In this document: piece by piece, positions 23,180-63,492 of the stretch | How positions within the stretch are numbered: position 1 is the stretch's first letter | How the letters are laid out: the number at the start of each line of letters is the position of its first letter | Source: Antedon mediterranea | Lineage: Eukaryota; Animalia; Echinodermata | Length of the DNA: 64,000 nucleotides | Direction of reading: 5' to 3' | Assembly (NCBI RefSeq): GCF_964355755.1 | Contig: NC_092680.1 | Coordinates: 20,035,045-20,099,044, forward strand | The notes under the pieces: generated by a model | The model's database searches: none | What the model was told of the DNA's origin: nothing | What the model saw: only the letters and a program-made list of their open reading frames with translations | Program-made: the position numbers and the translations under genes

Positions 23180-23232
<53 letters not shown>

Positions 23233-34624: not shown

Positions 34625-37600
34625 TTAGCCATTTACAGTATAATCGGTACTTGGTATTGATTCGCCAAGACATTCATTTGGAATCCATCCTTGTTTGCTG
34701 TCTGTAAGATTTATAGCTCGTACCCAACCTATTATTATATAATTGATAATAAACAATGAATTGTACAATGAGATAGAATTACACGATACATATATAAATA
34801 TTATTTATCATTATCAAAAACTACTTTGTTACGTCGTTTCACTTCACAAATTCAACAATGTAATATCTGTTTATTGTATATAGGTTTGATTCTAGAGACG
34901 TTATTTCCAAATACAAACGGGAATACAATATTAAGTTCGGTACATTTATAGAAGGTATGAAAAATAATTTTACACCTTTCAATTTTAGATATTGTTTTAA
35001 AAATCATTGATCTGCATGTTTGTGTTATTAGATATGAACATGTTATACTAGCATACTTACCATTTAATCTATCAGTTATTTCTACCTCATCACCAACATT
35101 GACTTCCAGATTACCACTGTTACTCTTATGAAATTCTTTAGCAATCTTGTATTTTGGTCTACCTGGTTCGATAAGCCATATAAATCAATCAATCAATCAA
35201 GTAAATATTAATAAAACTTAAACATAATGTTATACAGCACGCTATCAAATGTTAGGGAAATGAGATGTGTAGAGATTAATATACATTCTCAACACAATAA
35301 CCAATGATATTGGCAGATCAAAAACCAAAATATATAAAACAAAATTTATCTAAGCTTGTAGGTATTTTTTTTACAAATAAATGTTAATTTATGCATTTAT
35401 CCATTATTATTCTTATCAAACAATACACAAAATACTTGGTTTCATATAAAATATATTTCGAAAGAAACACCTATCTATAATCCCCTCTTTCAGACTAAAA
35501 GTGAATATTAAAAATTCAACTAAAACACCAAAAAGTGAAAGTAAATTGGCTCAAACTTAAAAATATTGTAAATATCACTTACTCCAGGGGGCATATTGTT
35601 CCCCGTCGTCGCTTGATGAAACGGACAACGTTTTTTGCCAGAATTCGAAACTTCTGTAATTTTAAAGTTAACATAGTAAATAGTGTATTTTACAAAAGTT
35701 CGTTTATATTATACATATTCGTTCTGTTGATCTAAATTTTGGAGTTTGGATTTGAAGGTAAATTCATATAAAGGAAGCAGTATGGAATGTTGTTAATTTT
35801 ATATTTCTATTTATGAATTCATACCGTAACATAATTTTAGTCAAAAACAACAATTGAATTTGTCGGGAATCAATAACGTTTGCTTTTAAACATTTTCACA
35901 CTATAACGTTTCCTAATGTTAAGAACAAACTCAACCCACCTGTCTTGCGAAGGCTCCCAACACACATAGTACAGCCTTCTCTCAGGACACGTGTCATTGT
36001 GCATAACAATCAAGAATACATTAATTGACACACCTTTTTTCTTTGGTACTTTAAACGGATAGGTGTCACTTGATGGGTTCTCAACTTTAACAAAGTTCTT
36101 GTTGGCACAGTCGATGAGATTATAGCAAACCCTGAATATTGGAACATATTAAAACATTCAAAATTAGATATTCATCTGATCATCAAAAAAGCAAACAATT
36201 TCGTATTAAAAAATAGTACTGGTAAATTAAAATATTAAAAATTAAAAAAAAATAAAGTATTATTGTTGGTGTTTGGCTAGTTTATTAATGTTATTGTGAT
36301 CTGAGCAGGTACTTGCCAGTGGTACAACTGTATATTTTTTTTCTAGATTGTTATTTGTTTACATAAAATATTGTATTTGTTTTGTGGTGGATTAAAATTG
36401 TCATTATTTTTCATTATTTCATAATTAAACTTTAATGCATGTGCTAAAGAAAACATCAGTAGGCCTCCGTATGTAACATTGACTAAATTATATTTAAAGA
36501 TAAAAATGCCTCACTTCTTTTTAAACAATGTTTTTAAACTGCTAATGATAGTGGATGTTTTAATTTACTGTTATATGCTTACTCATTGTGTTTTTTGTTA
36601 TGCTTTTCGTTGATAAGCATTACCACTCGTTCGAATGTGACCAACTTTACATTTGATCCTGATTTCTTCCAGTCTTTGCTACCCTTTTTCTTGCTGGAAT
36701 ACACTATGACGTCATTCCAACTTTCAACCCAACTCTCATTACTAATTTGTTTCTCCTTCTACACATGAAAATATACACACATTTAAAATAAACAAATTAA
36801 AATACTTTGTACTAGGTTTGCAACTCTTCTTTAAACTGTAGAAATATCGGGACCTCTAAATATGTCATCCATGTCAACCACAAAACAAATACAAAGGCAA
36901 AAATATACGTATCGGAATTTATCGTATTGTCTATCAGTACTCATCCAGGCACGCCACACGATTGTTGGATTTTTATTGTTGAGATTTTTATAATTTTGCT
37001 TTTATAATACAGTTATATTAATACATTCAAAGTATCACTCTAATAAAGTGCAATTGTCCTTCAAATTGCTACAGAGTGTTTTTTACAATTTTACCTCTGA
37101 TAACAGCACACCCTCAACGGTTTCAAACTCCATACTGTGTAGAATCTTTGATACATGTCGTTCTTCTTTCATTTGCAATTCATGATTATGTTTTTGACAC
37201 TCGTTTATGATGCGATTCATGTTTTGAGTAAGGTCATAAGCAAGTCTCACTACATTTGCTTCCGGGTTGTAAGATATCTGAATCGCTTCTTGAAATCTCT
37301 TAAAAAACAAAATTACAATCAATTATTAATCTAACGGTGTAGGTAGAACTAATTCATTCATTTATTCAATCTTTTATTTCAGAATCTCTGGTCTGGTAAA
37401 ATTAATTACATATAAATTAATTAAGAGTAAACAAGACTGTACTAATTACTACTAATGGATGGCATTCCACCTGATTTTAATTAAATATAATTGTAGTTCA
37501 TTAAAGTTTGGTACAACAGTTTATACCGTACTCATTTAATGTAACTTTGACTTTTAGACCAGGTATATATGTATTTTTTTCTTTACTAAAAAGACAATCA

Positions 37601-40600: not shown

Positions 40601-43600
40601 GAGATTACCGTTTGATATGACCAAGTGGCTTTGTATATATCTTCTTTGGTATCACGTCCTTTGCCTCTTTAAAATCTTTCAATATTTTTTGGTTTAGCAT
40701 TTAAATTACAGTTAAATAATTCAAGATTGTTCAAACTATGTTCTAGTTAAAGCCATACATTTACAATAACAATATAATAATTGATCGAGCCAATGTACAT
40801 ATATATTATTTTATATATTATTTTATATTTTTTACAATTTTCAACATGCAAATAATGGCACGGCGGAATCGCTGTCTAATTCAAAGACTTGAATAAATAA
40901 TACCTCAACCTTTTTTTCTTTTGTGAGTTAAGTTCTCGTTCCTTCTTTATTTCTTCTCTTCTATCTCGCTTCAAACGTACTGATTTTGTGTAATCATTTT
41001 CCAATTGTTCCCCCTTTTCTCTTGGAAACCAACCGAATTTATTGTCGTGTAATCTGACCACATGACACATAGCTGTATAAGAAAGAATACCAAAATGTAC
41101 TATATATTCTTTTCATTTTGCATAAAAAAGAATAGATTAAATTAAAAATCATCATCTATCTTTTTATTTATTATAGTATTTAATTTAACCATGCTTTCAT
41201 CAATTAAATAATAACGACGGTTGAATTAGACTAAATATTAAGTAATTTTTGTCACCTCTGTCATCAGTTTCTTCAATCACATCAACTTCATCTTCAGGAG
41301 TAAACGTGACGCCAGTTAATTTGTCAGTATACTGCTGACGTATCACATATTTGGGTCTACCTGTATAATTATAATGTATGCATGTATTTATGTTTCTGAA
41401 TAAAAAGGTAAAGATGATACATACACATGTACATACACATAACAATCACCTTGACATTGATTAATTAACACACTCTTTTCTTATACCTATGTCGATATTA
41501 TAGAAACGATGAATTGCGAAATTGAAATTAATTTTTGTTAAAAAAAAAAATAAAATAAATATTTGCTACTTACTCCATGTTTCATAGATACCATGTTCTG
41601 GAATTAGTATAGCCTTTTTCCATTCTGCCAACAATGAACTAGACAAATTAAATTGTATTGCGATTAATAAAGCTACTGTAGTTTAATTGGGCAGTTAACC
41701 AAGCACAGTCAATTTCAAGGCTCTCCGATCCGAGACAAGTTAGTTTTGTTCTATTTAAGGCCCTATACAACTTTTAAAGATGCTTCTTTGCACGTATGAC
41801 AGAAGTGGAATGTACGATAGAGTAGGCACCTCTTAACAGGCGCTTACTGAGATCGTTTATTCAGAAAATGCATCTTGTAAAACTGTTTTTGCTTACGTGT
41901 GTGTTACTTCATTTCCAATAAGAGCTAATATGTATCTGTTAGTTGAATAGTGATTCTTAGATTGTCCAGCAAGTTGGTAGAAGTACAGTACAAACGTATG
42001 AGGATGTGGAGACGCTTTCTTTGGTAGTTGTTCGAAATCAACGTAGTTTCTGTTACAGCATTCCAGTAACTGGTATGATGTGCTTTTACTTTAATTTTGA
42101 ATAAACAAGATATTAATTAAACATTGGATGGATTAGATATTACAAGTAGTTTCATGTTGTACAATTAATTTTTTCAAAAATAATAATGCATCATAAAAAT
42201 CATTCTGTTTTCTGGATATTGAACTATAACATACATAATTGAATCTACATATTTTGTTTTAATAAATTTTTCAATAATTTAAAATAATAGATTTCAATAG
42301 TTACTCTTTCTTGTTTTCTTCCATTGTTGTCAAAAGAACGAGTTTTTCGAATACCACCAAGTAAACTTTGCTGCCAGAATAATCACTTCTTCCATATTCG
42401 GATTTTTTCGGCATATTTACGTTCAAAAGAATCCCTTGCATCTTTGCATATTCTTCAGTCAGTATGTGGAAAGCCTACACACGACAATACAATAACACTT
42501 ATAATCTAGTAAATATTCTATTACTCTAAAGAGGTGTTTGAGGAATGTGAATATGGCTTCAAAATACCACATTTGTATAAATGAAGATGTGGGTCTACAA
42601 AGACTTTGTAGATATGTAATTCAGAGAGCAACTTAATATTAATAGTAAATATATGTAAAATTAAAATAACAACTTTACGTTATTTCCATTTGAATACACA
42701 TACAGAAACCTAACTATACTAGATGTAATACTTATGACATATGGTAATAGTAAAATAATTAAGTATAATTATCAATTCTTATCTAGTTCAAGTATATTAG
42801 CTAAGGCTGCCTATTAAATAATAATATGATTTAACATTACTTCTTGACAAATGAGTCCATGTTCGTTCTTTGGAAATTCTATCCGTCTAACGATTGTTGA
42901 TGAATGATTGGCAATACTCTTAGCTTTCTTCTTGTAATCGGCAATCAATCTTGCTTGTGTGTTCTCCAACAGCTTGTGCGTTTCGTGTGCTATCTGGCTC
43001 ACAGTGTTACCCCGGTAATTGACTGTTGCGTCTTTTAATTTCTTTTATAAAATAGAAATGTTTTATATTTTTTGGATGGAAAGAAACAATAATAAATGTC
43101 TCAAATAGTTACAAAAGTCTACTGATAGATTGGTGTTCGTATCAAAGACTAGTATTCCAAAGTTTTTATTTGTTATTATGTATAGGCTATGTATATGTCT
43201 AGTAATTAAATCAATTCAATTAAAACTTTATTATCCACATGGGGAAACTCTGTTGGCCTTTTATTGATATACAGTACATACAACTGATACATTTGTTTAT
43301 GGATACCGCTTTGATCTTAAAGAACAACGCTTAAATCCATATTGAACTACATAATTATTACCAACCTGAAGATGACGCGCTAGTATGGCGCACCAATTAT
43401 TTGGTTCTTTACATCGTTCTTCCAGATCCCTAAATGAATATTCCTGAGTTGACTGTGACAACCTTTGAAATAGCATATGGCAGTCAGGATGGTGTTGCCT
43501 TTAAGAAAAGTAAAAGGCAATGACTTATAAGTACGCAAGAAAATACTAAGCAATTAGTTTGCCCTCTAACAATATCAATATTTTTGCATCACACTAAACA

Positions 43601-46600
43601 AATGTTCAAAGAATTACTGTACTGGACTGTGGATATCGATTATTAGAATTACTGTACTGGACTGTGGATATCGATTATTAGAATTACGTACTGGACTGTG
43701 GATATCGATTATTAGAATTACATATTACTCTATTTAAAAAGTCGTTCATTTTAAAACCATTTCCAATTATAGAAAACTATACTGAATTTTGTTCTGTTCT
43801 GTCTTGTTCATCATAATTATAAAAGGCAACATGATTTTACTTCAAAATAGATTATTACTCCATCATGGGTATTTAGTTTCGAAGTTATTGAGGATAACAA
43901 TTTAATGTAAAAATATGTATGAAATAACATAAACTGGTATGCGAGATATAATTGTGAAAACCAAAATAGTCTTACTTTACGAATGTAAGCAGATTCTTTC
44001 GAATATCTTGATGCAGATAGTAAGACTCAAAACATTCAAAAAAACGCTCCTGAAGCCAGTATTTCAACAACTTATATACTTCAACAACATCTTGAACCGC
44101 ATACTTTAAATTCTCTATGAAGCTACAAACGAAATATATCATTAACAATAGAAAAAAAAGTTACAAATTGATATTATTAATAACACTATTGCTAGCAAAT
44201 GTACATTTAACAAATCAGTATTTAGTACTCAACCATAAAAATGGTTGAAATGCAATAGTCTTTCATGAATAATGGACTTTTAAAAATCTTATTTATAGAG
44301 AGAAATCAAGTAAAGAAAATCAAGCTCAATCTGTTTTGTATAGCAATACAAATATAATATTCTGTTAAAGATAATAATTATAGTTGATGTATTATTAAAA
44401 ATAATAATAATAATAATACCATTATCGTACCTATGTAGAGTTTCTTCAATTTCATCCAAGTGATAAAACAATTTTAACTCCCCGGCTGAGAATATGCTAT
44501 GCTTCAATATATTCTTTTCGTACATATCTCGTGTTTCTTTAACATGTTTGTGAATCCACGTCACTTGACTAAATAAATCTGCACATTCCTTTAAAAAAAA
44601 TGCAAATGTCAAATTTGGTTTAACGAGTTGTTGAAAACATAATATAGATTAATTGAACTGCCTTTAAGGGGTTTTTTTCAGAACATTGTAACCAATATTT
44701 AAATGATTTGTGCAGGATTTGTGTAAGATTTGTGTGTAAAATCATTAAAACAATATTCAACAAACTTTATAAATCGAATCAAGTATTATATAATGATACA
44801 ATGAGTCATGCGAAGATTTGAATATTCAATAGGCCAGTTTGGGCTACTAAGGTCAGCAGTGCCATTTGATATTCTATTCTACAGATGCTGAAAAAAATGA
44901 AAGAAACGACTACAAATACATTTCTACCTAATCACAATAGGTTATAGCTTACTTGTATGCAGCTAGGGTCTCTATCTATAGGTCTACATGTTACTGAAAA
45001 ATCCTCTTCTGTGTTTGTTTCAATTGTATAATGCACGGAAGTGGTGCCCGTTTCTTCAGACGCCGATATGTCATCACTATCTAACTCTTCCTCCTCCTCC
45101 ACTTCTGTATTATATTGCACCATATCCGACGCTTCTTTATATGTATTCTGCAATGACCAATCCGGCTCCTGTTTCCGCCAGTTTGTTGGTTCGGGATTTG
45201 ACATTTCAGTCAGTCTAAGGAGGCCTGCATCTTCTAACTTATTTTGAAGTTGCAAGTTTAAAGATGTACTCTAGACAGAAATTCATATTATTTTGTATTA
45301 TTGTTAAATATCTCTCAACTATTAAAAATCACCATCCATTAGTCTTTGTGAAAATATGTTCGCTATAATGAAATATCTTGGAATGCAGTGAAAAGGTAGA
45401 CTAAACAATAATTGCAATTTTTGAAATTTTACTTAAAAAAAAATTATTATTTCTATCTTTCTACTTAACGTTATTCAATATTGAGCGAATATTAAATTGA
45501 AATTGATGGAATTGATTAGCCAAACAAAATCGTAAGATCACCGTACTAAATGTTAACGGAATGATCAAATAATTTTAGGTTAACTTTTAGGTTAACTTTT
45601 ACGAGCACGCTACACGGGGATTCACTGCAGCTTTTAGAATAGTATTTTAACATTGAAGAAACAAATTATTTACCTTTCTTAACAAATGCAGCGGTTTCGT
45701 TTGGATGTCGATTGGTCTGAAATCATATTATAAGGTAAAATTAAAATAATATAATAAATTGTTGAACTTTGTAATATTATTTATGAAGTAAACTTTGTTA
45801 AAAACATATTCATACCTTTTTATAGAGGGCCTTGTGGGAGCTGCTGGGGATTATGAAAAATGAAATTAAAATATTATTAAAGATTATGTACCATAGATAT
45901 TTACAAATATTACAAATAAATATCTTATTTTGCAATCAGAAATTTTAGTTAATTGAGGATATATATAATATATTCAAATAAAAGAATAAATAGAGGAAGT
46001 TAGAGTTAGAACCAAAGTAGCCCATTGTGCCGAAATTCTGAACAAATAGAGCTGAGTATTTTGACAATTGAGAATATACAGTACGTGCTATAAGCTCTAG
46101 CCCTCTGGCGCTATTAGCAAACAATGTACTGAATTACCCACAGCATTGAATAGGTATAGAAACTTAGAACTAGGCTAAATTCTATTTTGCCATTTAAAAA
46201 CTCTGGACAATAACATACTGTTTAAATTGAGGAAGTATCTTTCAAAAATTGAGAGAAACGTGTTCTTGTCTATTGAGCTCTTTGTACTCTAGCCTCGTAC
46301 ATCCGGGTAACAAACCATCCCTTTGATCACCCCCAACCATCTACAGGTTTGACGTTCTGGCTTCTATATAAATTAACTTAAATTAGCAACAGAGCCCACC
46401 TATTTATTGGAACAATATTATGTCAATGTCACCCGTCCATACTGTTTAAATATAAGGCATTATAGAGTTAAGCATAAAGCTTCTATGATTTTATTTAATC
46501 ACCTTGATACAAAATTAGAAATAAACTGAAATCAAACATTTCTTTTGTTTACTGCGATGTACTGTACATACGACTTATTTCATAAGACATCATTTTAGTT

Positions 46601-47312
46601 CAATTAAGGCACTAACGCAACGTAACGCAGCGACGTATTGACGAAAAGTGTTTTAGGCCTATTGCGTAATCACAAGTGGGAACCTACGATCGACGCAACA
46701 TTGCTGCTGCAAAAACACATCAACGCAAAAGAACACTGGAAAACATAGTACAGCGCGTACTCAAAGTACGCGGGGTGAACTAGGTCATCAAAGTCTACGG
46801 CATGCTAACGTTGATGCGCAACAATCATGTTTGATTTCACGCAGGCGGGGGAAAACACAATTATTGAAAGGGCATTTTGCTTATGTTGCGCGTAGGTTGC
46901 GTTGCGTCGCTAGTGGAAACCACGCTTCAACGGTAAGTTGTTCTAGTGTACTACAATATTTACTTTAAAAAGAGTAAAACTTACTTATTGTTTGGTTTTC
47001 ATAATCCGGCCTTTTTGATTTTATCTGAGTATATTGCTGACATTCATCTATCGGCGAAAAACCTAGGCCTGTATCAAAATTACTATCAGAACTTCTTCTA
47101 TAAAGTGGCGTGATTTTACCATATTGTTTGTTTATTTTCAAAATGTCTCGGCCTACGTTTATGTTACTTCCAGAATTTCGTCTAGGCTGTTCACCATAAT
47201 GACCACCTTCGAACGGCAAAACATTTGGTAGACCTGCAACTTGGAAATGACTTTCAGATCTTGCACGAGCCCGTGGTTTTGGTGGAACAGCGGGTGGTAG
47301 CCCGCTTGCCAT
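34625..47312 (-). CDS. Gene C: paralog with (DH-PH-SH3)x2
   Basis: Exon 1 MASGLPPAVPPKPR...YTQIKSKRPDYENQT (about 46988-47312), micro-exons about 45816-45843 and 45674-45716, exon 4 44953-45249 (acceptor AG changed to AA), cassette 1 about 40909-44589, linker about 38579-40214, cassette 2 about 34625-38408, ending GWVRAINLTDSKQGWIPNECLGESIPSTDYTVNG*. The exons I translated were open and in phase. Confidence 0.8.
40322..40609. mobile_element. MITE with about 32-bp TIRs and a 9-bp TSD, containing a tRNA-like Pol III promoter
   Basis: GTTTGATAT at 40313-40321 and 40610-40618. TIRs GGTAAGTTATTCTTCCTCGGTCACCTTTGCCT / AGGCAAATGTGATCGAGGAAGAAGAGATTACC. Internal A box TGGTCGAGTGG and B box GGTTCGAG. 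Confidence 0.8.
43611..43721. repeat. 35-nt minisatellite, about 3 copies, intronic
   Basis: GAATTACTGTACTGGACTGTGGATATCGATTATTA three times; the third copy lacks 1 nt. Confidence 0.95.
46609..46928. mobile_element. MITE-like element with (ACGCA)n sub-terminal inverted repeats, in gene C intron 1
   Basis: CACTAACGCAACGTAACGCA ... TTGCGTTGCGTCGCTAGTG; GC-rich relative to the flanks. Confidence 0.55.
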
Positions 47313-48632: not shown

Positions 48633-51600
48633 TTACTTCTTTCGATCATGTTTGTTTCCTTTTTTATCTTTTCGAATAATAACCGAATGGTGTGTATGCC
48701 CATCGTTCCTGATGCGTCGCTGCTGTCTGATGTTCATGCCTCGAGTGAACATACTCGGTATCAAATCACCGAGGCAAGATTTTGGAATCCACCCTTGATT
48801 ATTGTTACCAAGATGTACAGCTCTTACCCAACCTATCAACATAATGTTATGAATATGTAAATGTGTGTTGTATGAATACGGACACCGATATTATCAAATG
48901 TTGTTCCTCTCTTCAGTAAATCTCGAAAAAAAACTTTCATAATAACGTTTAAATTACTACTACTTCGTAGTAATGACATTTTTAACGAGACAATTCTACA
49001 TACCATCTGCCTTTTCAGTTATTTCTACCTCATCGCCAAGATTCACTCTCAATTCACCTCTCTCGGTTCCAAGGAAATGTTCCACAATCTTATACTTTGG
49101 TCGGCCTATTGGGGATTATAATGAAATGAGCTGTTATTGGCATAAACTATTGCTGTGTAGATATGCCTTTGTCGTGTTGCAATTAAATATCTCTGGACGA
49201 GTCGTTTCTGGTATTGAATTGGATCTTATTTATCTACTAAAATTATTTGCGGTAAGGCATAGAGAAACTAACGTATTTCTCAATAGGTGAAGCTACATCA
49301 ATTAAAAGCTAATTATATCGTTATCAGCTATTATACAATATGAAGCATTTAAAATCATAGGATTTGACAAGTCTTAATTAGGTATTACTTACTCCAAGAG
49401 GCATACTGTTCTCCACTGTCGCCCGATGGTACCGTTAAATGTTTTCGCCAGATTTCGAAACTTCTAAATTAAAATAATAAGTTGTAAACATCAACTTCAT
49501 AGGCCTACTATTTGCCTGTACTTTAAACTAGCTCAGCACACACGGTAAGTCATCAACAGGACAAAGAATATCGGCACAACTTCACATCTTAGAGAAAAAA
49601 AACGATAACATCTCCGACAACTACTAACATTTCTCTGTCGAAACAACGCTGGGACGTTCCATCGAGCAGGCTGGGACATCGAAAGCGATTGAGTTCGCTG
49701 TAGGAGTCCCCGGGCCTAGCATGTATGTGGTATGTGTTATTGTTTGTATTGACGTAGCCTATTCAATATAATGCTTCACCTGATATGTTAATTCGCACGA
49801 ATACCAGTGAACAATAGTGCAATTCAATGCAGCGTCACGGATTTTATAAACTCACGTGGTACATTACATAATGCGCCACCAATAATGCTTTGATAAAAGT
49901 TACTTCGGTAAACTTTGCGTGCTTTTGTTTAAGAAAACTTTCAAGAAAATGAGCCTCTAATCACCGCGTTTTACGAAAGACGCTTTGATCATGATTATTC
50001 AACTTTACCATTAAACCTTTTGAAAATTCAGATTTGTTTTACTAATGATTCTGACCTCTGAATTTAACTAGAGGATTTGGGTAATTAAAACAAATGCAAC
50101 TGAATAAAGTTAGAAAAAAAATAAAATAATGATCTAAATTAAACGGAATTGTAGAAATATATTTACATAAGTTATATCACAACTCAAACAAACCTTTTTT
50201 GCGAAGGCTCCCAACACACATAGTACAACCTTCTCTCAGGACACGTGTCATTGTGCATAACAATCAAAAACACATTCATTGTCAAACCTTTTCTCGTTGG
50301 TATTTTAAACGGATAGGTATCGCTGGATGGCTTCTCAACTTCAACAAAATTCTTGTTGGCACAGTCGATCAGCTTATAATAAACACTGAAAAATAATATA
50401 ATGTTACATTATTGAACGTGTTTTACTACCATGGTTATATAATCTTTAAAATAATATAATTATATGATTTACTAACATAACCATAGATTGCCAAACGACC
50501 AACAAATTTTATTAACTGATTTAGTGCAATGTGCTCACCCATTTTGCCCGTCTGATTTGTGTTGCTTTTCGTTTATCACCATCACCACTCGTTCGAATAT
50601 TACCAACTTCACATTTGATCCTGCTTTCTTCCAGTCCTTACCATCTGATTTTTTGCATGAAAAGACTATGACGTCATTCCAACTTTCAACCCAACTCTCA
50701 TTGCTAATTTGTATCTCCTTTGGATTAAATTATTATTGAATTGAATTTAAACACAGTGCATATTAGGAACGTGTTTATAACTGATTTGATTCATTTCAGC
50801 AGCAGCACTACAACAGAGAGACGATGTTTATTTGTATAACGCTAGTATGGTAGTATGACTAAACTATGAAGCTGTGACAAGGATATTAGTAAAAAATCTA
50901 CATGGGGATGCAAGAAAGAGACTAGAGTTTTACATTTTTTTTAAAAGCTGGAAAACAATTAAATAGCCTTTAGATTTTGATAAAATATATGTTATTTTAA
51001 CACCTAACCCCCACTGTATACTTCCATATTTATCTACTCTACCTCTGATGAGATCACACTGTCACTGTGTCGAAAATGCATTCGAAGCAGAATCTTTGAA
51101 ACATGTCTTTCTTCTCTCTCTTGTAATTTATTATCTTGTTCTTCGCATTCATTTACAATGGCATTCATGTTTTGAGTGAGGTCATGAGCAAGTCGTACTA
51201 CATTTGCTTCCGGGTTATTTGTTTTCTTAATTATTCCTTGTAGTCTCTGAAACATAATCATTATTTTAAAACTATGAATGCACAAGTATTGTGAATTAAC
51301 ATCAGTCTCTGCTTGTTAGGAAAGTTCACGTGGTTAGAAATAAATTTGAATCGGAAACCCGTCTTACTTTAATGTACAGGTTTAATTGCTGAAGAAAATA
51401 ACAGGGTTGCTTCAATAGACCATCTAAAGTATGATGACGACATGCAGACGAACAAATATCAACCGTCTTTTCTTGACTTTTTACAATTTGGTTAAAAGCA
51501 ATTCTTCGTTTCCTAAAAGACATAAAAGTCAGCAAAAGTTTTCAGTACAATAATCATTTAGAAGTAGAAACGGCCATAAGTTACAACAATCATGGAATTT

Positions 51601-54600
51601 TGGATTGAAAGAAAAGGATGTTAACCACTAACCTACAACTACATTTTTAAATGAATCTAACCTTAAATATGACAGGGTAAATTCTTGAAACCTTGAGTTC
51701 ACTGTATAATCTTGAAAAGCATTTAGGAAGTCAGTAGTCACAACATCGAGTAGGAGTTGGCAAATCAATGAATCATTGAGAGGCTTACATTTTTTTAAAT
51801 CGTCCAGTAGGCTGCAAGAGTAAAAACCATATATTATAATATAATGTCATGAATTATAAAGATATTATATCATAAGATATAACATTAATGTGTGAATAAA
51901 GTGGTTGTTAGGAAAAAAATTCTTACTCATCGAGAAACTGTATGAGTTTTGGAATTCTCGCAAACAGTCTTCTATATTCGCCATCTTGTAAAATGCCATT
52001 CTGCGGATTAAGTGCGGCGTTCGTGACGTAACGACTATTGAGTGCATTCAAGTCTTCTAAACATTTGCTCACAAAATCCACAAATTCTTTGAAAAGCTAT
52101 AAAAAGGGTAAAGTAGTTTTGTAGTACTCAGTATGTGTTATAATTATTATCTAAACAATGTTTAAATATGAATGATTGAATTCTGAATTATTTTCTGTAT
52201 AATATATTCATAATTGCATTAAAAGTGATTGCTATCGAACTGTATGAATAGGTTATCATAAACGATAAATAACATGATTTACTGAGGTCTAAAAGATAAT
52301 TGTTTACTTACTGTTTCTGTGGTTTGAACGTCTCTGTTTACGTTGGCATATCTTCGCATCATAATATGTAAAAGTAAGAAGTGTAGAACAAAACAAATAT
52401 ACAAACATTATACATCAGTAGTAAAAATAAATGTCAGATTAAATTTAATTTATTTCTGCATTTGGCAAAAACAGCTTACTTTATCTCAATGTAGTTTCCG
52501 CAACCTATGCGTCGCGACCAAAATGTTTGGGTCGCGAAAAATAAATTGATGTATTTACCGGCGGAAAAAGTAGCTGACTAAGATCATTATGCCAATAAAA
52601 TTACGAGCGCGCTATTTTTTAGAGTGTCATTTTCGGCCAACTAGAGGTGCCATTTATTATATTTTTTACGTGTGAGAGTACCATCTCCAGCCAGGGGTTC
52701 ATTTAACAAAATGCGCTTTGCCACAGGGTAATATGTGCATTTTTGATATAGGCTGCCGGTGGCTAAATGCCTGTGGCCCCATTACTAGAGAGTACTATAA
52801 TGATAGTGCTTATGTATAAATCACGACTATGTATTCAATTCAATTTTATTTCGGAAATATCATCCATATTAATAAACTTCGTAAAAAAAATCGTAAACTC
52901 TAAACTTAAGTATATAGAATGCTTCTCCATCTACAATACATTTTGGAATTATGGAGCATATGTTTGCAAACACAAGCAACAAGGATGTTACCAATATTCA
53001 ACATACGTTGCAATGCATTATATTAATATGACGATAGAAATCGCAAAGATAGCTTATCTATTTCATAAATTAACTTAACTGTCTCAATATCTTTCAAAAA
53101 GAAAAGAAAAATAATATTCATTTTCCATAAAAAAAAGTTCGTAGAGCTAGGTTCGAACCGTACCCAATCTAGATCTGAGGGTACTCAAAACCGAGCATTA
53201 CCCGTTACGCCAGAAAGTACATGACTGAACAGCTGATAATAGTCTATTTATACGTACTTCATATTACATAATACATCCTTACGTCATAAATATATTCATG
53301 ACCTGCTTATATGCCAGATGACCGATTAGCTCAGACGGACTGAGCGTCGTGTTAACAACACGGATGTCATAGGTTCGAACTGGTCGTGGTGGAATTGAGT
53401 TAAAGCTTGCGAGCTAAGTGCTTCGGGTTCACAGAATAATACGTCCCCCCTTTCCGCCACAAAAGCAAGTCAATGCATCTGGTGATGCCGTGGAAAAAAA
53501 ATTATATGTCTCTGCCACAGCATTAAATCCAATTCAATTCAATTCAAGAAACGTTTATTGACCAAAAATATTATATAATAACATTAACAATGGTTGGCAT
53601 ATAATATTACCAGATGCAGGGATTCGATTTCGTAAATGTTATGCTTAGCACCCTCAATTTTAAGAACATAAAAACATGTCAACAAATTAGGAACAATGTA
53701 GAACATTGTAAAGATGATACCGATGTTGTTTTCGTAAGATCAAATACGCAATGTTGGGTTGCGAAAATGTCCAAAATAGGATCATGGGGTCGCGGTCAAA
53801 AAAGGTTGCGGAACGCTGATTTAAATTTAGCTAAGTACTAGAAAGAAAAGACCATTTATTTATTTTAAAATTTTTAAAAGTTGTATTTATTCAGAGTAGA
53901 CAGAGCTGCTTAGGATAGACAGCTATTTCAATGCCATATATAATACGGTATCGTATATATAATACAATCGGTACTCACATTTCTCGTGAATCACAACAAG
54001 CCTCGATGTCAAACTCTAAAAAAACATAATATTTTAGCATTTAACATTTTAGGAAAAGAATGACTGTTCAGGATTAGTCTGCTATTGTCATATCGACTCC
54101 TACACTTGTTATCACAATGCGTACAATTTATTGTATACTATCGTCCATCCCCTACGTTGTTTTGGCGTTTTATAATACATTGATAGAACAGGAGGAGGTT
54201 AGTATTCTATAATAATAATAAGTAGCTCGAAGAATCCTAATATTTAAGGGCTTACTTGAAAATAACGAAAACAATTAAGAATCAAAAGTAAAGCATTATT
54301 CATCAACCAACAAATATCGGTCACTTACCTGTTTTGCCACCTGTCTGCTCTGAAGGTATTTGAGAGGATTTTCTTCTTCTTGCAAACGACAATGCTCCAA
54401 ATCGCTTTTTGAATGATTTTTGTCCTTTTCTTTCTTTGGTGGTTGTTGGTACAAGCGTATTGTCATTGAAAGCGGAAAAAACCACATATGGTTCTTCGTA
54501 TACGTTATCATCATACATTGGATCCACGTGAACACTGTCAACAACAAGGATGTATGGATGTAATTATGAAAAACTTGAGTGCTACTTTTATAGTATTCAT

Positions 54601-57600
54601 TTTGAAAATTAATTAAAGACAATAAATCTTTAACCGGAGAAAAGTTTACCCAGATGTTGCAAATAGAACATAAACAAAGGAGAAAATTAATTTAAGAAGC
54701 GACTGTGGCAAAAGATGTTATACTTATTACGAATTAATTTTTAAAAAAATGTAAACATATATGTTTAGGACCACCGTAGCCCACCACCAATCAATACAAA
54801 TAGTCACCTACTTAAATCTATCAGGCGGGTGGACAGTTTGTGAGGTTGTTTCTTTATCTTCTGGCTCAGTGTCATAATCTAAAAAGCTATCATCGCTAAG
54901 TTCATCTTGGTTATAATGTATGATCTGATTTTCTTGTTGGTCAACATCTTGGCTTTGTTCCTCAATCTGTTCCTGAAATACAGAATGTCGCCCCCTATCG
55001 ATTGCTTCTTCGGGGAGGCTTACTTTTTGCGGTTGCGCATGTGCATCGTGTGTTATTACAGGATATTCCATTTTGTGTACACAAGGCTTCTCTTTCTCAT
55101 GCACTATCCTGTTATCTGCTAATTTAGAACGATTTACTTCCTGCACAAATACCTTAACATAATAGTATATTTATAGTTTTTTGTTTGTTATTTTGACGCT
55201 ACATCGATTTAATTCATGTAAGAGTTGAAGAGAAAAGAAAGTATATATAGTTAATAAAAGACATGCCAACGATCCATGGGCATAATCGGAGACAACAATT
55301 GAACTTGGCTCTACTACTGCGTCACATGCCAAATTCATTCTTTTAAACGAGGAAAGAAATTATACTATGTAAACAATTGTACTGTATCTTGTGTTAATTT
55401 TAAATCGCTTGTTGGATCAAAAAAGTATATAAACAGAAACAAACTGAACGTGACCTGGGATTTTTCCGATTTTTTTTCCATTAATTTTCGAACAATAAAT
55501 ATGTTTTAACATTTATAAGGAGATGTAACTTTAAATTCAAACAAATACTTTGACTTTACTTTTAAATACATATGAATAAATTAGATAGTAGTAATAGAGC
55601 TTCATACAATCGTATTTTATCAATGTAATATATTTGATCAGATTTACATACATTAAATTAATGTTAATGACAAACGTACCGATGGTGTCTGCTTTCTATT
55701 ATTGTCACGCGCGCGTCCATTATTAGTTATGGAACGCCGATGAGCAATCACACCTCCAAATTTTTCCCTTAACATTCTCTGAAGCGTTGAAAATTTCTCA
55801 GAACCAATTCCTTCTGGAACTTTCCTACAAAGTGAAAACCAATTTTCATTTTATAAAAAAATCATAACGAGTTTTGTATTCAATCGTCTATAGATACGAT
55901 TGACCAAGTTTGCTTAAAATTGGATAGGTACAAAGCGTCTTTGAGAAGAAACCAATTTTAAATATAAAAAGTTAAAAATAAACCTTATACTTCTGAAAAA
56001 AATAATCGGATAAATTCGACATGCATTTGTATATTGTATTATATTAATTATATACTATATTTTAAATACTACCAATCGAATTGGTAATAATTTGCCGTCA
56101 CGTGTTTGGGATATTTGCAATACAAATATTACGCTGTATTTCATAAAGATAGTTACTCATTGATTTGAACAAGTAAAATATTTGTCTGTTCATGCTCCAT
56201 TTAAATCCAACCATGAAGAAATAATCTCCATGATCCAACGAACGGACTGACAATGATTATTATAAGTTTGCATGACATCTCTTGTAGGATTGAAAGTTGA
56301 TGCTAAACTATTGGATACTGTAAAGCAACTGTTATTCTTGTTTGGCGTTGTAAATGTATTTTTTCCAAAAAATTGCCAATTTTCGACCCTTATAATTTTA
56401 ATTCACATAACAGGTTAATATATGATAATAAATAACGTGCACACGGTAGACCAACTAATAATTACTCTTCTTTCATAACTTTTACACCTCCCTTCTCATC
56501 GCCTTAATTACATCCCTCCCGGCCCCTCATCATTTATCAGAAATTTATCAAATACAATAAAAATATTAATCCGATTGTTAACTTCACTTAGCATCCCACT
56601 CTATTCATAATAGTAACCAAATGACGTCATCCGGTTTGATTCACTTTGAAATAAATCACTGAAACGAAAATGACCTATCCAACCATGATTGTTCATCCAC
56701 ACATGTCCCATACATGTTAATAGACAGATCGAGAATATTTTTACTGAATCTACAATATATTACATTACATTAGACAGTATAAAGTGTAATGTTTGACCTA
56801 ATTAAAATTCTTTCCAGTTCCATAGTTTAACTTTTAATCGTTAATGGTATTTATAAAAATACATACATTATCGGAAAAATAATTATGATACACGCAATCA
56901 CAGGTTATTATTATCACCTCTGAGCATTTCAATTTTCCTTCTTTTAAGCATTATTAAAATATAATATCTTACCTTGAATTGAATATATCTTGAAAACTAA
57001 CATGCTTAGCTGCAGAAGATATCGGCCTAGTTGGCGTCGTTTGATGATCCCGTTGAGGAACTTCTGTCAATGCTTTTCTATTGCTCAGACGTTTGTTTGA
57101 ATGTTTTGGTATCTGTTGCATGTCTTGTTCGGTACAATGATTACTAACTCTCCTTTTCTTTTTCCTATCATTTTGTCTTTTTTCAATTTCATTTACAACT
57201 ATACACTCTTCTTCTTGATTAATTGATTTGCATTTAGATCGTGTTGGTATGTCTGTATTTTTGTTGGGTTTTCTTACGTTTGTATTAAGTTTCTTATATT
57301 CTCGTGGTTCGCGCATCTGTAATGTGTGTTCAGATGACACTTCGTCACGCGTGATGTCATAATCAGAATGTGTCTCACCATTATAATCACTGCATTCTGA
57401 TTCACTGTCTAAATCAGGGGCTAAAGACGTACCAGATTTTATAAAATATAAATCTTCTGAACAATCACTGTCGCCATGGTTACCATTCTCTAGAATATCA
57501 AGACCGTGTGAACGTGGGTCTACGTAGGTTATGGTGTTAAAGTCAGATTTATTTAAATCTTCCGACTCACTTTCTACATGCCCTATTATTATCAAAGGAC

Positions 57601-58441
57601 ATGATAGAGCTGTATCAACATATTCTGTATGATTATCAATCTTTGAATTAACCGAAGCCTGAATCAAATTGTTATCTTGTTTCATTTCGTTTGATCTTCT
57701 TGGCCTGCACGTTCTTACTTGTTCTCTTGAGTTAGGCTCATTTGTTCGAGATCGCGAACATGAACTACTGCGTCCTCTGTTTCCAGGCGTAGTGTTCGGT
57801 TTTCTTCGTGTTTCGCGATGTTCATGCATGCTATCACAATTCTGTGTGTTCTTATCGTATAATTGATCGGTTTGATCATTTTCACTATTACTAGTTTCGT
57901 CATCCTGGTCAATATAATTCCGGTTCTTGTGATTTGTTTTTGTGTGGTAAACGTCCTTTTCTGTTCTTTTATTTTGTTTCTGATTCTTATCAATCGATTC
58001 AAATCTCAATTCCTCTGTCTGCCATAATGTCCTTTCATCTGCCGTAGAAAAACATCTAGGCACAGATTTCGAACGTGTGTTTTTATTGTTTACTTTACTT
58101 TCAGAAGATAGCTTTCTAGTCCTAGCAGGAGCTGGGCCTTCATATAAAGTTTGCCTTCTTTGATATCCTGCATGCGTGTCAGACGTAAATAACTGTTTAT
58201 GACTTTTTCCTCCCTTAGTATTCCTTATCGATGGATTGACTGTGCAGGTAATCTTTCGCGTCTGAGCAGTAGACTGCTTTTCAACAGACCACGCTGGATT
58301 CTCACTCACGCTATTTATCTTCAGTTTAGAGCCCCTGCTGAGATCAGGTGTTGATTTTGCCATATCTGTAGTCATGCTCGCTTCAAACAGCTTTCTCAAA
58401 TCTTTTATACTGCGACGTTGGTCCGTTGGTAGTTGCGACAT
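48633..58441 (-). CDS. Gene D: single-cassette ephexin-like DH-PH-SH3 protein with a long low-complexity N-terminus (about 15 coding exons)
   Basis: Exon 1 56973-58441 (490-aa ORF), 55680-55824 (GIG..FGG exon), 54812-55140, 54329-54534, 53979-54015, 52312-52333, then cassette-2-type exons about 51927-52096, 51662-51811, 51368-51512, 51043-51246, 50539-50717, 50195-50386, 49393-49463, 49004-49105, 48633-48832 (GWVRAVHLGNNNQGWIPKSCLG...KHDRKK*). Confidence 0.82.
52492..53818. mobile_element. hAT-like non-autonomous element with nested insertions, in a gene D intron
   Basis: Ends AGTTTCCGCAACCT ... AGGTTGCGGAACGCTG and sub-terminal GGGTCGCG motifs at both ends. No TSD recognised. Confidence 0.55.
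53320..53388 (+). mobile_element. tRNA-Ile(AAT)-like SINE head or tRNA pseudogene
   Basis: GACCGATTAGCTCAGACGGACTGAGCGTCGTGTTAACAACACGGATGTCATAGGTTCGAAC: A box, anticodon arm and B box present; 3' side of the T-arm missing. Confidence 0.65.
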
Positions 58442-58904
58442 TGTCGTATCGCATGGAAACGGTCAAGACGTAGTTTATCAAACACTTGTGCGTGTTGAAA
58501 TGACAGAATCTACAGAATTCCCAAAACCATCTTACCGTCTTATTATTTTCGCCTCGTTAACCGCCAACGAGCAAACTAACTAGCTGTTTTCACGATCTCC
58601 GATCATCCGAGTAGAACGTATTCACATGGATGTACACTGCCTGTGTCAGCAGCACAAATTAAGCACAAAACCGTGTACTAATAATCTAATACAATCACTT
58701 TGGTATCAAAATAAACCATTAGCGACGTGATATCACTAACTATCTCTTTATGTTATTCTTAAGGTTGACAGATATAGCGTAGTTAGTTTTAATTAGTTTA
58801 GTTCTAATTTAATTTGAAATATAATTGTAGCATGAACGTATACCTACCACACTATTTTAGTAGGTCTACCGTTAATGATAAATACCTGGATAAAAATAAT
58901 ATCC

Positions 58905-59080
58905 TGGATTTATATAGCGCCTAATGTTGTGAAACCTCTAAGTGCTGAAAATTATTACTCCAGTCATTTTTGATCAAACACCTATTTAAACATACTCCCA
59001 TAATGCAGCTTGTAGTAGCGCAAAGTTGTGTCTTGATCTAACCGGGTACCTATTTATACACCTGGGTGGAGAGAGGCAAA
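58905..59080 (-). mobile_element. SINE fragment (conserved central domain and L2-type tail) between genes D and E
   Basis: Minus strand reads TGCCTCTCTCCACCCAGGTGTATAAATAGGTACCCGG ... GGCGCTATATAAATCC, recognised from memory as a widespread invertebrate SINE core and tail. Confidence 0.55.
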
Positions 59081-59637
59081 CCAAAAAAAAAATCAATTCA
59101 ATAATATAAATGCACGGAAACAGATTTGGCTAATAGTAAAAATGTAACAATGTTTTGATATTGTATAGAATATTATAGCTATGTATCAAATCCCTCTGTT
59201 CACAATTCTTATGTTGTCCTAAATTCCATATTTTTTACGCGACTGAACGATTTGGAGCACAACAAACAATGGCCCTGACAAAGAAAAACAGGCGTCAACT
59301 GTTTTTAAAAGAAAAAAAAACATAAATAAAAATTGATCTTGAAATAAGAATGTTCCATTTCTATTTTGTTGATTTCCAAAAATATGTGTATCGTTGTAAA
59401 TAGTTCATTTAGCGTATGAGCCATGCGCAGTGTGCGTAATACAATACCGTTGGAGTATGTTCCTTGTTTATTTGAACTATACTGATAATCGTTGATGCGT
59501 GAGTGGGTATTGTGCATTGATCTATTATAGTTATAATACAAACTTTATTAAAGTCCCCTAAAAGTTCAATGCATACAATAAGCAAACGTTTTTGTTATAC
59601 TTGTTAGTTAGCTTCTATTATTCTACGGGTACATATC

Positions 59638-62600
59638 ATGGCGGAAAAGGTAAAACCCGCCGTTAAACCAAAACCACGGGTTCGTCCGAAATCTACAGGT
59701 TATGTGGTTGTACCTGTAAAACCGAAACAACCGCAAACTGGAAGTAAATTCGACGTATACAATTCACCAACATCTAAAGGAGGTAAACCATATGCTAAAA
59801 TTTCATGTACACGACCTTATGAAAACGGTGACGGTGTACCAGTAATCTCGAATTACCAGAAAGAAGGGAAAAGTGAGTATTTCTATTTGTATTTGTACTT
59901 TTGGCAGGTTCGTACGTAGGCCTACATTGGTTCAGATTAGCAACCCTCTCGCCAGCCGCCCTCCCCCCACCCTCCTCCTTCTCGGTTAAGAAGGTGCAGC
60001 TATGCTAAGACAAGTTTAAAGAAGAATAATTGATGTTTTGTTTCATTTCCATTCCTGCACGCTATATTGAAGCAGTTTTGTAGTAATTTGAACATAATGC
60101 ATGCGATTTTCTTCGTATGCTGATGAAAATTATATAAATAGATAGTCTTACTAACCTGGGGTTAGTAAGGCTATAATCTCCGATACTAGCTATATAAATA
60201 TGCCTGCAAACTATCATATATCTAGCCGTAATGACAATGTATTGCTATGGTATTGATTTATGAAATATTCTATTCTAGATCATAGTACAGTCTTGACTTA
60301 TTATACTCAAAACTATAAATAGTTACGCAGTAAATTTAATTTATAGATCATTGTTCTTTAGTTTTGGATTTGATATCTTTTTGCTGCTTTTTAAACTACA
60401 TATAAACTACTTATAATAAACCTTTTTCGTAAGCGAATTATATAGTGTCGTCACGTGATAATGGTATGTAGACCCAAGTATAAGTACTTCAAGCATACAG
60501 TGTTGGTCACACGCTTTTACATAAAGCCCACAATGCTTCAATTACCTATTTTAACCAGGGATAATAACAACTCCCTGTTTTAACTTTTTCAAAAGTACAG
60601 AAATGTTTCCTCGAATGCAATATCCGGGTAGACTTAATTAGATGTTAGGTGCAGTATACAACCGAATAAACGAATGCAACCGAATACAACCGAATAATGT
60701 AATGTTATATACCGTACAAAATTAGTTAACGAGAATTATATTAACGAGTTATTACCAAACCACACTGTACTATATAATAGGCCTAGTATACAAACAAAAA
60801 AAATATAGGCCTACAAATAATGTTTATGAGATATCACAAAAAATTTTAAGTGAAAATGTATATCCTACAGTTCATCTTTCACCAAATGAAATTATTTGTA
60901 TTAGGCCTATTAGGCCTACGCGAATATAAAACATTCATTTTTACTACTTTACTACTTTATTACTCATTCTGAAAGCATTTGTTTCATGTTATTGTCTTAA
61001 TGATACATATTTATAATAAAAAATGCATATTTTATTGAATTTAATTATAAACAATTTTTAAATAATTTTCAGAGCCGATAGACATTCCAAAAAGGTAAAT
61101 TTCTGTTGTTTTCTATAGAATTGCTATTGTAAGTGATCTGATCATAAAACAGACCTTACCATGATTACAAAATTGATAATGACGATGTATGGTATGGACC
61201 GTGCATCAGAAGATTGTTGTTGATGATGGTGAAGATGTCATTATATGATTTTAGAGGTGTTTACCACATGTTGGTCCTCAACATTCACTAATGTACATAC
61301 ATCTGTGTGAGAAGTTGAATAAATAAAATAAATTATAACAAAATAATAGTGGAATAAGTTGATGATTCTTTTGAACATGATCGTAATATAACATCTAATT
61401 TTTTAAATTCAGCCCTGTATCGCCAAAAGGGAATGTGAATTCTATACAACAAAAGGTAAGACCAACTGATTTATAAGTTGAACATTAATATACAAATAAT
61501 GTATTGGGTTATGTATGTGGGCATACTCAGGAACTAGCAGAATGTGTATACATAATAATAAACACGGTTGTCATATAAACTATTATGTCAAGAGGTATTC
61601 ATACTATTTTTAACTTTATAAACAAAATTTATCAATATAGTCCTCCAGGGAAGAGTGAAAATAATAACAATCACGCATTTTTGTTGATTTATAACATTTC
61701 TACTATTGGACAAAAAAAAATAAGTATAGATGATAGTGAAATAAAAATGTAATTAGCTATAGCCACGGTAAACATAGAACTGAACCAAAGAGTACATAGT
61801 GCGTAACGTAACCCACACTAATAACTAAATTCATGTTCCTATGCTTCACGGCTGTACGAAATGTGGCATACATGTATTACACATGAAATAGAAATCATAA
61901 ACCTGGAGTAAGCTTGCCGTTGTTTTACTATAATTTTATTCATTGTTTTGTAGCTTGTGATGGCTATGAGAAATGTCAACCCGGTTCCTCAAGCAAGTTT
62001 CACTTACGACTCTAGACAAGGAACAAATCAAGCAAAATGGCGAAAAGAAGACATTTATTATGAACAGGAGACAATAGATAATGAGTTTCGTTTGACTTTT
62101 TATTGTTGTGTTTTTAAAAATGCAATGTAGACTAACTGTAACTTGTAAAGAACAATACACATGTCAACTAAACCCAGATCAACAGAAACTTGTTTGGATT
62201 TATTTTCAGACATTTTAGTTTAATAGTCTATCCGTCAAATTTACATATTTGCTAATAGTCTTCTTTTTCTTTAAAAGTTCAATTAATTGAAGTTCATAAT
62301 CAGTATGCAACATATTTCCTATTTCTAATGAGTCAAGCTGTTTGTTTCATTGACAAAATAATGTTGTTATTTTGTCCATGCTTTATTCTAAACGTAGTCA
62401 ATTATAATGTTATGGTGGTGAATGTAAATTTGACGAGAAGAGAAGATTATGTACTTTTCCATGTAATGTATACTTTTCAACAATACACATACATAATCTA
62501 GGCCTTGTGCGAATGTACAGAGTAACCCAGCGAAGTGAGTTTCACTATCGTTCGTCGTTTATTCACATAAACAGTTTCAATTTATATACAAATTTATATA

Positions 62601-63492
62601 TACTTATTTCTATATAGAATTTATGACGATGTTCCTTCTGAAGAAATCGAGGAAAATTACGAAAATTTTGAGACAAATTCTGGTAAGAATGAGATTTTAA
62701 AAAGCAATTCACCACCACATCAATATTATAATAATATTGATAACCAGACTATCGGTAAATAGGATTAATTAGTTTTATCTTAATGTTCATAAAATATAAT
62801 CACTCAGTCAACACTGATCCATTATATATTTTGTTTATTCTACTAAAGGTGTCTCTCGGCGACAATCTCCGGGAAGGTATATAAAGGTAAGTAAGGATCA
62901 TTTATTCATGTCTTAGTAACATATATAAGTAATTATAAATAATGTGCTTAAATAGATCAAAAGGTTTCCATCAGAGACACGACCGTAATTATCTTTTATC
63001 GGTACTGTAGGCCTATCTATACATTTCTCGAGTATTATAGGAATACTCAAGGAAGCAGCCTTAGATGTGTTTTACATGTATCATCTTATCATAGACTATG
63101 CAGTAACCTAACCTTACATGATACAGGGTCCCAAATGATCACCAATTGCTGGATAGATCACCTTATTAAATATGGTTCAAATTAAAAGTAAAATAAATAA
63201 ATACAGAGACAACAAAAGAGATGCATATATTACCAATATAATAGGTAATCATTGAGTATAGTGAATAGACAAATAAGCAAATCATATACAACAATTAAAA
63301 AAAAAGAGTAAACGTTTCTTTTTAATGTTTTCAGGAATGTAGAGATTTTTATGAACGAGTGAAATGGACATATGAGTATATAAAGGAAACAAGAGAAAAG
63401 TACGAAAAAGATCAAGTACTGAGAGACGTACTTTTTCCCGGAGAACTAAAAATGTTCAATCATTTGGATGAAATTGAAGTTGCTCTATTCAG
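59638..63492 (+). CDS. Gene E (5' part): divergently oriented paralog with the A/B/C-type N-terminus and the first exon of DH cassette 1; continues beyond the window
   Basis: Exon 1 59638-59872 (MAEKVKPAVKPKPR...YAKISCTRPYENG), micro-exons 61073-61094 and 61413-61455 with the same phases (1/2/0) as A-C, tentative exon from about 61954, 62618-62682 (IYDDV..NYENF), 62849-62886, 63335-63492 (ECRDFYERVKW...KMFNHLDEIE, homologous to A 9753-9910). Confidence 0.78.

What the first reader, a model, noticed from the sequence alone, without database searches (positions are those of the whole stretch)
48633..63492. Possible parents of the fusion sit head-to-head beside the array: A/B/C = E-type 5' half + D-type 3' half
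Seen: D has only cassette 2. Its exons 2-6 (GIG..FGG exon, variable exon, YEEPY exon, two micro-exons) correspond one-to-one to the linker exons of A and C. D exon 1 ends in phase 2, exactly as the SH3-1 exon of A, B and C does. E has the A/B/C-type exon 1, the two micro-exons and the cassette-1 DH exon. Inference: a rearrangement placed an E-like gene upstream of a D-like gene, splicing skipped D exon 1, and the chimera then amplified. The alternative is that D is a truncated double gene that acquired a new exon 1.
Basis: partly seen in the sequence, partly recalled or inferred. Interest (0 to 1): 0.8.

Follow-up and report, generated by a model that had tools for sequence, protein, structure and literature searches.

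The report
Crinoid fusion genes beside both parents
In a feather star, three neighbouring genes each join two distantly related ephexin-like signalling modules end to end, with the join spliced in transcript data for one of them; they likely arose when a copy of the adjacent head-to-head pair of single-module genes was rearranged into one gene and then duplicated, and the modules are predicted to have lost exchange-factor activity.

Summary
Observation confirmed; main inference supported, with corrections. The window is from the crinoid Antedon mediterranea. D (15 exons, minus strand) and E (plus strand) lie head-to-head. A, B and C each carry an E-type DH-PH-SH3 cassette joined in phase 2 to D-type exons. 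E's annotated protein (633 aa) stops after one SH3. The crinoid Anneissia has a full D orthologue including exon 1, so D is not a truncated double gene with a recent first exon. It also has E-type pieces with E's C-terminal tail. A spliced contig shows C's fusion junction. Corrections: D exon 1 is physically absent rather than skipped; opposite-strand parents require an inversion; E has three exons where A/B/C have one; B lost two linker exons and has a premature stop. Unrooted trees keep D and E outside A/B/C. The cassette-2 root is unresolved: the free tree nests D inside A/B/C with weak support, while synonymous distances and indels favour D outside. Both cassettes best match Ephexin4 in sequence and fold but lack the CR1 glutamate, so they are predicted pseudo-GEFs. 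This is a clean case of known exon-shuffling chimera formation in an undescribed, fast-evolving ephexin family.

The parts
48633..58441 (-). Gene D: single-cassette divergent ephexin-like gene, 15 exons, 1210 aa model. RefSeq P0001 (651 aa) starts inside exon 3.
   Evidence: 41% identity over its whole length to Anneissia P0005
56973..58441 (-). D exon 1, 1469 nt, ends in phase 2; homologous to the N-terminus of the Anneissia D orthologue
   Evidence: 0 of 300 shuffles; first 40 aa 0 of 1000
52312..55824 (-). D exons 2-6: GIG..FGG 55824-55680, variable 55152-54812, YEEPY 54534-54329, micro-exons 54015-53979 and 52333-52312. These are the linker exons of A and C.
48633..52096 (-). D cassette (type 2): nine exons coding DH-PH-SH3 and the C-terminal tail
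58442..59637 (.). 1196 nt between the D and E start codons (head-to-head); a shared promoter region is inferred, not tested
   Evidence: sequence
59638..63492 (+). Gene E, first 7 exons: exon 1, two micro-exons, three extra exons, first DH exon. The annotated product (633 aa) has one DH-PH-SH3 cassette and continues beyond the window.
   Evidence: (100% identical over 230 aa)
34625..47312 (-). Fused gene C, 27 exons, 1281 aa; model identical to RefSeq P0008; C-terminal tail after SH3-2 truncated
40215..40909 (-). C fusion intron (695 nt, GT..AG, phase 2) joining the E-type SH3 exon to the D-type exon 2; spliced out in a transcript-type contig
15591..32530 (-). Fused gene B: SH3-1 exon modelled as joined directly to a shortened YEEPY exon (intron 21409-21271); in-frame TGA at 22494-22492; RefSeq splits it into P0007 and P0002
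1..13839 (-). Fused gene A, 27 exons, open reading frame, identical to P0004 (1705 aa); fusion intron 5922-5734 (189 nt); last codons lie left of the window

Best explanation
A, B and C are double-cassette genes made of an E-type DH-PH-SH3 cassette joined in phase 2 to D-type linker exons and a D-type cassette (splice shown for C); they likely descend from one chimera, formed when a duplicate of the ancient head-to-head D/E pair was rearranged, likely by an inversion breaking in D intron 1 and near E's 3' end, and then copied in tandem. Shown: exon structure, phases, C's spliced junction, D exon 1 shared with Anneissia, and purifying selection on both cassettes. From annotation only: E ends after one SH3. 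Inferred: the inversion (opposite-strand parents cannot fuse by a simple tandem duplication); one fusion followed by duplication (A first, then B and C); and a date after the Antedon-Anneissia split. The products are predicted to be Rho-GEF-dead (pseudo-GEF) ephexin-derived scaffolds that would present two PH-SH3 modules on one chain. B is likely decaying.
For: Phases and exon correspondence. E = P0006, 633 aa, single cassette. Anneissia P0005 is a single-cassette D with exon 1. Junction 40213>40909 lies in one 934-nt contig of run X1 running from the exon before SH3-1 to the last linker micro-exon, and is absent from control run X2, whose pieces run unspliced through the introns. Cassette 2 unrooted: (A,(B,C)) versus (D,AjD) at 100/98. 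Cassette 1: A/B/C clade excludes E at 99/100, 100/100 for the DH part and 90/88 for PH-SH3. dS D-A/B/C 0.65-0.84 exceeds within-A/B/C 0.38-0.55. Third-position changes unique to D: 60, versus A 33, B 31, C 12. A/B/C share a 118-nt DH exon where D has 145 nt. Upstream DNA of A is homologous to that of B and of C (0 of 200 shuffles each). dN/dS 0.25-0.45. Ephexin4 is the best hit by profile (E 3e-16) and fold (E 1e-16 and 2e-7). The CR1 glutamate aligns to Val in 8 of the 9 A-E and AjD cassettes and to Met in B1.
Against: With distant outgroups the best tree roots cassette 2 on A and nests D+AjD beside B+C (88/87, unstarred, with a long-branch warning). Neither the A/B/C clade (p=0.18) nor an all-Antedon clade (p=0.20) is rejected, but neither is shown. 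Within A/B/C, dS is higher in cassette 1 (A-B 0.75, A-C 0.71) than in cassette 2 (0.55, 0.47), which suggests conversion or rate variation and weakens the dating. No trace of the predicted reciprocal inversion product (D exon 1 on the plus strand upstream of a fused gene) was found. Upstream DNA of A/B/C is not clearly like E's (best 1 of 40 shuffles), and B versus C upstream is not significant (131 of 200). E's 3' exons were not read. The junctions of A and B and the D exon 1-2 splice were not seen in transcript data. Run X1 is RNA only by inference from its GT-AG joints. Loss of GEF activity is by alignment only, and the CR3 basic residue is kept in AjD, B2 and C2 (register set by eye).
Confidence: 0.78

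Rival explanations
1. The double gene is older than the Antedon-Anneissia split. D (with its own exon 1) and perhaps E arose by fission or partial duplication from an ancestral double gene, and Anneissia lost the double genes or has them mis-annotated.
For: The free tree nests D+AjD inside A/B/C for cassette 2. The Anneissia E-type annotation is fragmented, so a double gene could be broken up there. A second crinoid family with two DH-PH units exists in both species (P0013, P0014, P0015), so doubles are old in this superfamily.
Against: Support is 88/87 over very long branches and the alternatives are not rejected. dS, third-position patterns and the shared 118-nt exon place D outside A/B/C. 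The cassette-2 search found 1 Anneissia protein among 5 hits from 316 candidates, and it is single-cassette. E and Anneissia P0010 share a terminal tail absent from the fused genes.
Confidence: 0.12
2. The two halves are separate tandem genes (an E-like gene followed by a 5'-less D-like gene) and the fusion is an annotation artefact or minor read-through.
For: The SH3-1 exons reach a stop soon after the donor if read through. The donors are weak (gtaaaa, gtatat, gttgag). RefSeq splits B.
Against: In run X1 the contig carrying C's SH3-1 exons continues through the junction into four linker exons. None of the junction introns holds a first exon for the 3' half. RefSeq lists three fused C isoforms and a fused A-identical protein. 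B's split follows from an upstream nonsense codon.
Confidence: 0.04
3. Independent fusions, or the 5' donor was an E paralogue since consumed rather than a copy of E's own lineage (Anneissia appears to have two E-type genes).
For: Anneissia has two E-type DH sequences only 57% identical (P0011, P0012). P0011's N-terminus shares a YTQ..NQ motif with B and C exon 1 (by eye). A/B/C have one variable exon where E has three. E+A/B/C as an Antedon clade has only 77/77 support.
Against: In the DH part A/B/C are no closer to P0011 (40-41%) than to E (47-50%). A and C share a 163-nt SH3-1 exon with the donor at the same codon, which points to one fusion event.
Confidence: 0.15

Closest known systems
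Ephexin (NGEF/ARHGEF16/ARHGEF26) subfamily of Dbl RhoGEFs; Ephexin4 structures 7CSO/7CSP/7CSR
   Same: DH-PH-SH3 order with a helix after the SH3; best PDB match by sequence, profile and predicted fold for both cassette types.
   Different: Only 14-20% identity; Pfam RhoGEF and PH models are not hit; CR1 Glu and the CR3 QR pair are replaced; A/B/C carry the whole cassette twice.
Trio and Kalirin (two DH domains in tandem; PMC5499878, passages read)
   Same: Two DH-PH units in one chain.
   Different: Unrelated origin; here two complete DH-PH-SH3 cassettes about 21-23% identical to each other, with single-cassette relatives of each still adjacent.
Bcr DH domain and other 'pseudo-GEFs' (PMC5727386, passages read)
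   Same: DH fold lacking residues described there as important for catalysis (CR1 Glu).
   Different: Inactivity was measured for Bcr; here it is only predicted.
Chimeric genes formed by duplication and exon shuffling (e.g. Drosophila yakuba, PMC5460883, passages read)
   Same: 5' part of one gene joined in frame to the 3' part of a neighbour through a duplication.
   Different: The parents are on opposite strands (an inversion is needed), are ancient paralogues of each other, and the chimera amplified to three copies.

Membership tests
Ephexin subfamily | Tandem DH-PH followed by SH3 | tested here: met
   AF2 model of E (mean pLDDT 69.6, cassette mostly 80-95) matches Ephexin4 DH-PH-SH3 first, E 1e-16; profile hit covers chain residues 41-442; SH3 passes the Pfam cut-off in D, A, C, P0002 and P0005 but not in E.
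Ephexin subfamily | DH domain recognisable as RhoGEF with catalytic CR1 Glu and CR3 basic residue | tested here: not met
   No PF00621 hit in 7 of 7 proteins. CR1 Glu aligns to Val or Met in all nine cassettes. CR3 basic position kept in AjD, B2 and C2 only, register set by eye.
Ephexin subfamily | Phylogenetic placement within ephexins versus other Dbl subfamilies | not tested
   Only best-hit ranking; no canonical ephexin sequences were placed in a tree.
Ephexin subfamily | Eph-receptor binding and Rho GTPase activation | not testable with these tools
   Needs biochemistry.
Chimeric gene by exon shuffling | Halves homologous to two different single genes, joined at phase-compatible introns | tested here: met
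Chimeric gene by exon shuffling | Junction present in spliced transcript | tested here: met
Chimeric gene by exon shuffling | Parent architectures older than the chimera (polarity) | tested here: inconclusive
   D and E architectures are shared with Anneissia and no Anneissia double was found, but the cassette-2 root is unresolved.

The most novel reading that the evidence does not exclude
Crinoids have a fast-evolving family of catalytically dead ephexins that work as pairs: D and E are co-regulated head-to-head partners, and doubling of the DH-PH module has been fixed independently twice (A/B/C here; the DH-PH + DH-PH-SH3 family on another chromosome, kinase-fused in Anneissia). The fusion would then hard-wire a heterodimeric pseudo-GEF scaffold into a single chain.
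Probability: 0.15. Interest if true: 0.7.

Novelty: new variant of a known kind. Interest (0 to 1): 0.45.

Why it matters
The locus keeps both parental gene types, three chimeric descendants and an outgroup orthologue, so the steps of domain-architecture evolution (inversion, phase-2 splice capture, amplification, decay of one copy) can be traced exon by exon. It also exposes an undescribed crinoid family of ephexin-derived predicted pseudo-GEFs that Pfam does not see as RhoGEFs, so such proteins would be missed in RhoGEF counts. The process itself is known.

Tried and rejected
No whole genome was held, so E's 3' exons could not be read. Pfam on 25 single exons gave no hit at cut-off. Laying runs on 44001-64000: the joint table was filled by repeat-derived joints, so the D exon 1-2 and E splices were not seen. 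X1 pieces ending at the C exon-1 donor and near D's last acceptor are only hints, and X1 also holds intronic pieces. No run is on record as RNA. The third protein search (1137-3245 aa, 2500 candidates) found nothing, not even the known A and C proteins, so it is uninformative about Anneissia doubles; the cassette-1 search likewise missed Anneissia E-type proteins later found. Junction introns show no similarity to each other or to D intron 1 (8-94 of 100 shuffles). No remnant of D exon 1 or of E's tail was found. The AF2 model of D was poor (pLDDT 38). D+E complex prediction gave no verdict (score 0.00, alignments not used). The VIA-align search was not run. ARAGORN found no tRNA. Earlier findings: three look-ups, nothing. 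Literature: searches listed no paper on these genes or on crinoid ephexins (listings only; subscription papers and supplements not seen). Searches were background searches. Ephexin4 E295A was checked as a possible catalytic marker and dropped: PMC6262623 (passages) shows it is an activating mutation. PMC13079724 (passages) gave no divergence date.

Full report
Setting. The window is AT-rich eukaryotic DNA. Protein searches with exon alignments returned NCBI proteins of the crinoid Antedon mediterranea that are identical to the window's exons. Self-comparison shows three long minus-strand paralogues (A, B, C), a shorter minus-strand gene D and a plus-strand gene E.

Anatomy. Exon models from AG/GT sites give open frames for A (27 exons; identical to P0004 over the 1695 residues in the window), C (27 exons; identical to P0008 after moving one acceptor to the position seen in the spliced contig), D (15 exons, 1210 aa) and the first 7 exons of E. 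Every cassette has nine exons with the same phase series (0-2, 2-2, 2-0, 0-0, 0-2, 2-2, 2-1, 1-1, 1-), so cassettes 1 and 2 are ancient paralogues, about 20-24% identical. D's exons 2-6 match the linker of A and C in order and phase, 5 of 5. By sequence only the GIG..FGG exon (A, C) and C's YEEPY exon beat shuffles. D exon 1 and the SH3-1 exons of A, B and C all end in phase 2. E's exon 1 matches A and C but not B; its micro-exons match weakly (5-33 of 1000 shuffles). E has three exons where A/B/C have one variable exon, with weak similarity to A and B (26 and 35 of 1000). B is modelled as splicing SH3-1 straight to a shortened YEEPY exon and has a TGA at 22494-22492.

Is E single? The annotated product P0006 is identical to the E model over 230 residues, is 633 aa long, holds one cassette by a local HMM and ends 10 residues after the point where A and C splice on. 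Anneissia P0010 ends in a matching tail (0 of 1000 shuffles). This rests on annotation; the DNA was not read.

Is D a truncated double gene? Anneissia P0005 (1290 aa) aligns with the full D model from residue 5 to 1210 at 41% identity, including exon-1 motifs (exon 1 alone 0 of 300 shuffles). D's architecture therefore predates the split of the two species. RefSeq's Antedon D (651 aa) simply starts inside exon 3. An exhaustive HMMER search with E gave 15 hits at E<=0.001 among 1.84 billion representatives, all Antedon or Anneissia proteins where named (P0004, identical to gene A, is unnamed). Four are Anneissia E-type pieces listing the same longest-contig length (2,580,914) as the D orthologue, two with near-consecutive accessions. 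A conserved D/E neighbourhood is thus likely, but its orientation was not seen. The cassette-2 search found no Anneissia double gene (5 hits of 316 candidates); this is weak evidence because the Anneissia annotation is fragmented.

Is the fusion transcribed? On 38200-43100, run X1 shows 10 joints, all GT-AG on the minus strand at or within 6 nt of modelled sites; control run X2 shows none of them. The joint 40213>40909 (695 nt) lies in one 934-nt contig that runs from the exon before SH3-1 through the GIG, variable, YEEPY and micro-exons. X1 is not on record as RNA; the joints are what identify it as spliced. A and B were not tested. X2's pieces break at a repeat inside this intron, so they do not bridge it as DNA.

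Trees. Cassette 2 unrooted: (A,(B,C)) against (D, Anneissia D), 100/98. Cassette 1: A/B/C form a clade without E. With all 19 cassettes, the best tree roots cassette 2 on A, nesting D beside B+C at 88/87, unstarred, and the tool warns of long branches. Independent lines favour D outside: dS to D 0.65-0.84 versus 0.38-0.55 within A/B/C; four-fold site differences 0.37-0.46 versus 0.23-0.32, and 60 third-position changes unique to D versus 33 unique to A; a shared 118-nt exon against 145 nt in D. Against a tidy clock, A differs more from B/C in cassette 1 (dS 0.71-0.75) than in cassette 2. DNA upstream of A's ATG aligns with that of B and of C, as expected for whole-gene duplication after fusion; B versus C was not significant. 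dN/dS of 0.25-0.45 in all nine cassette pairs shows purifying selection.

Mechanism (inferred). D and E point away from each other, so a simple tandem duplication cannot place E upstream of D on one strand; this follows from geometry. On the plus strand each fused gene reads D-type left and E-type right, the same left-right order as the D/E pair with E flipped. The simplest path is duplication of the pair plus an inversion with one break in D intron 1 and the other near E's 3' end. This removes D exon 1 from the path and lets E's SH3 exon splice to D exon 2, both phase 2. D exon 1 is not 'skipped': the junction introns are 189, 139 and 695 nt and no remnant exists in the window. The reciprocal product was not found, so the inversion is the least-step reading and is not shown.

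What the proteins are. Pfam finds only SH3. Sequence, profile and fold searches all rank Ephexin4 first. PMC6406967 (passages) gives DH-PH-SH3 as the ephexin layout. PMC5727386 (passages) names a CR1 glutamate and a CR3 lysine as important for catalysis and calls DH domains lacking such residues pseudo-GEFs. Here the CR1 glutamate aligns to Val or Met in all nine A-E and Anneissia D cassettes. The CR3 QR pair is replaced by other residues, mostly aromatic; the following basic position survives in AjD, B2 and C2 (register by eye). I predict non-catalytic scaffolds, about 70% likely. They look like ephexin derivatives, but I do not file them as functional ephexins.

Comparison and verdict. Chimera formation by duplication and exon shuffling is established (PMC5460883, passages), and tandem DH domains exist in Trio and Kalirin (PMC5499878, passages). 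My searches (listings) showed no paper on these genes. The finding is real and well supported. It is a new variant of a known process in an undescribed protein family, so interest is moderate.

Noticed in passing
P0013 (Anneissia), P0014/P0015/P0016/P0019 (Antedon, a 26-Mb sequence), P0018: A second crinoid family of divergent ephexin-like proteins; P0013, P0014, P0015 and P0019 have DH-PH + DH-PH-SH3. P0013 has an N-terminal protein kinase domain (Pfam E 1e-49) and P0014 a kinase remnant. Its two units form separate clades from cassettes 1 and 2, suggesting an independent doubling.
   Followed up: partly
window 27723-30168: Perfect 1223-nt direct tandem duplication inside B, containing B's first micro-exon twice (28816, 30039); 100% identity suggests an assembly artefact or a very recent duplication.
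   Followed up: partly
window 34198-34852 and 15591-15676: C's last exon is duplicated (about 89% identical). Both B and C have lost the C-terminal helix after SH3-2 that A and D keep.
   Followed up: partly
window 10195-11871: A's variable exon is 1677 nt and made of degenerate Gln/Pro/Ser/Thr-rich internal repeats; Anneissia P0011 has a different repeat tract in its N-terminal region.
   Followed up: no
window 236-665 and 22934-23150 (+ strand): Short ORF fragments resembling non-LTR reverse transcriptase (YADD-like motif; C-terminal region) in introns of A and B; labels are from recall, not from a search.
   Followed up: no
window 46600-46900, 52800-53500, 58900-59100, 63840-63990, 40330-40550: High-copy repeats by contig depth; the one at 58900-59100 sits between the D and E start codons and one lies in C's fusion intron.
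   Followed up: no
window 56973-58441: RefSeq's D model (XP_071964875.1) omits exons 1-2 and part of exon 3; the Anneissia orthologue supports the longer 1210-aa form.
   Followed up: yes
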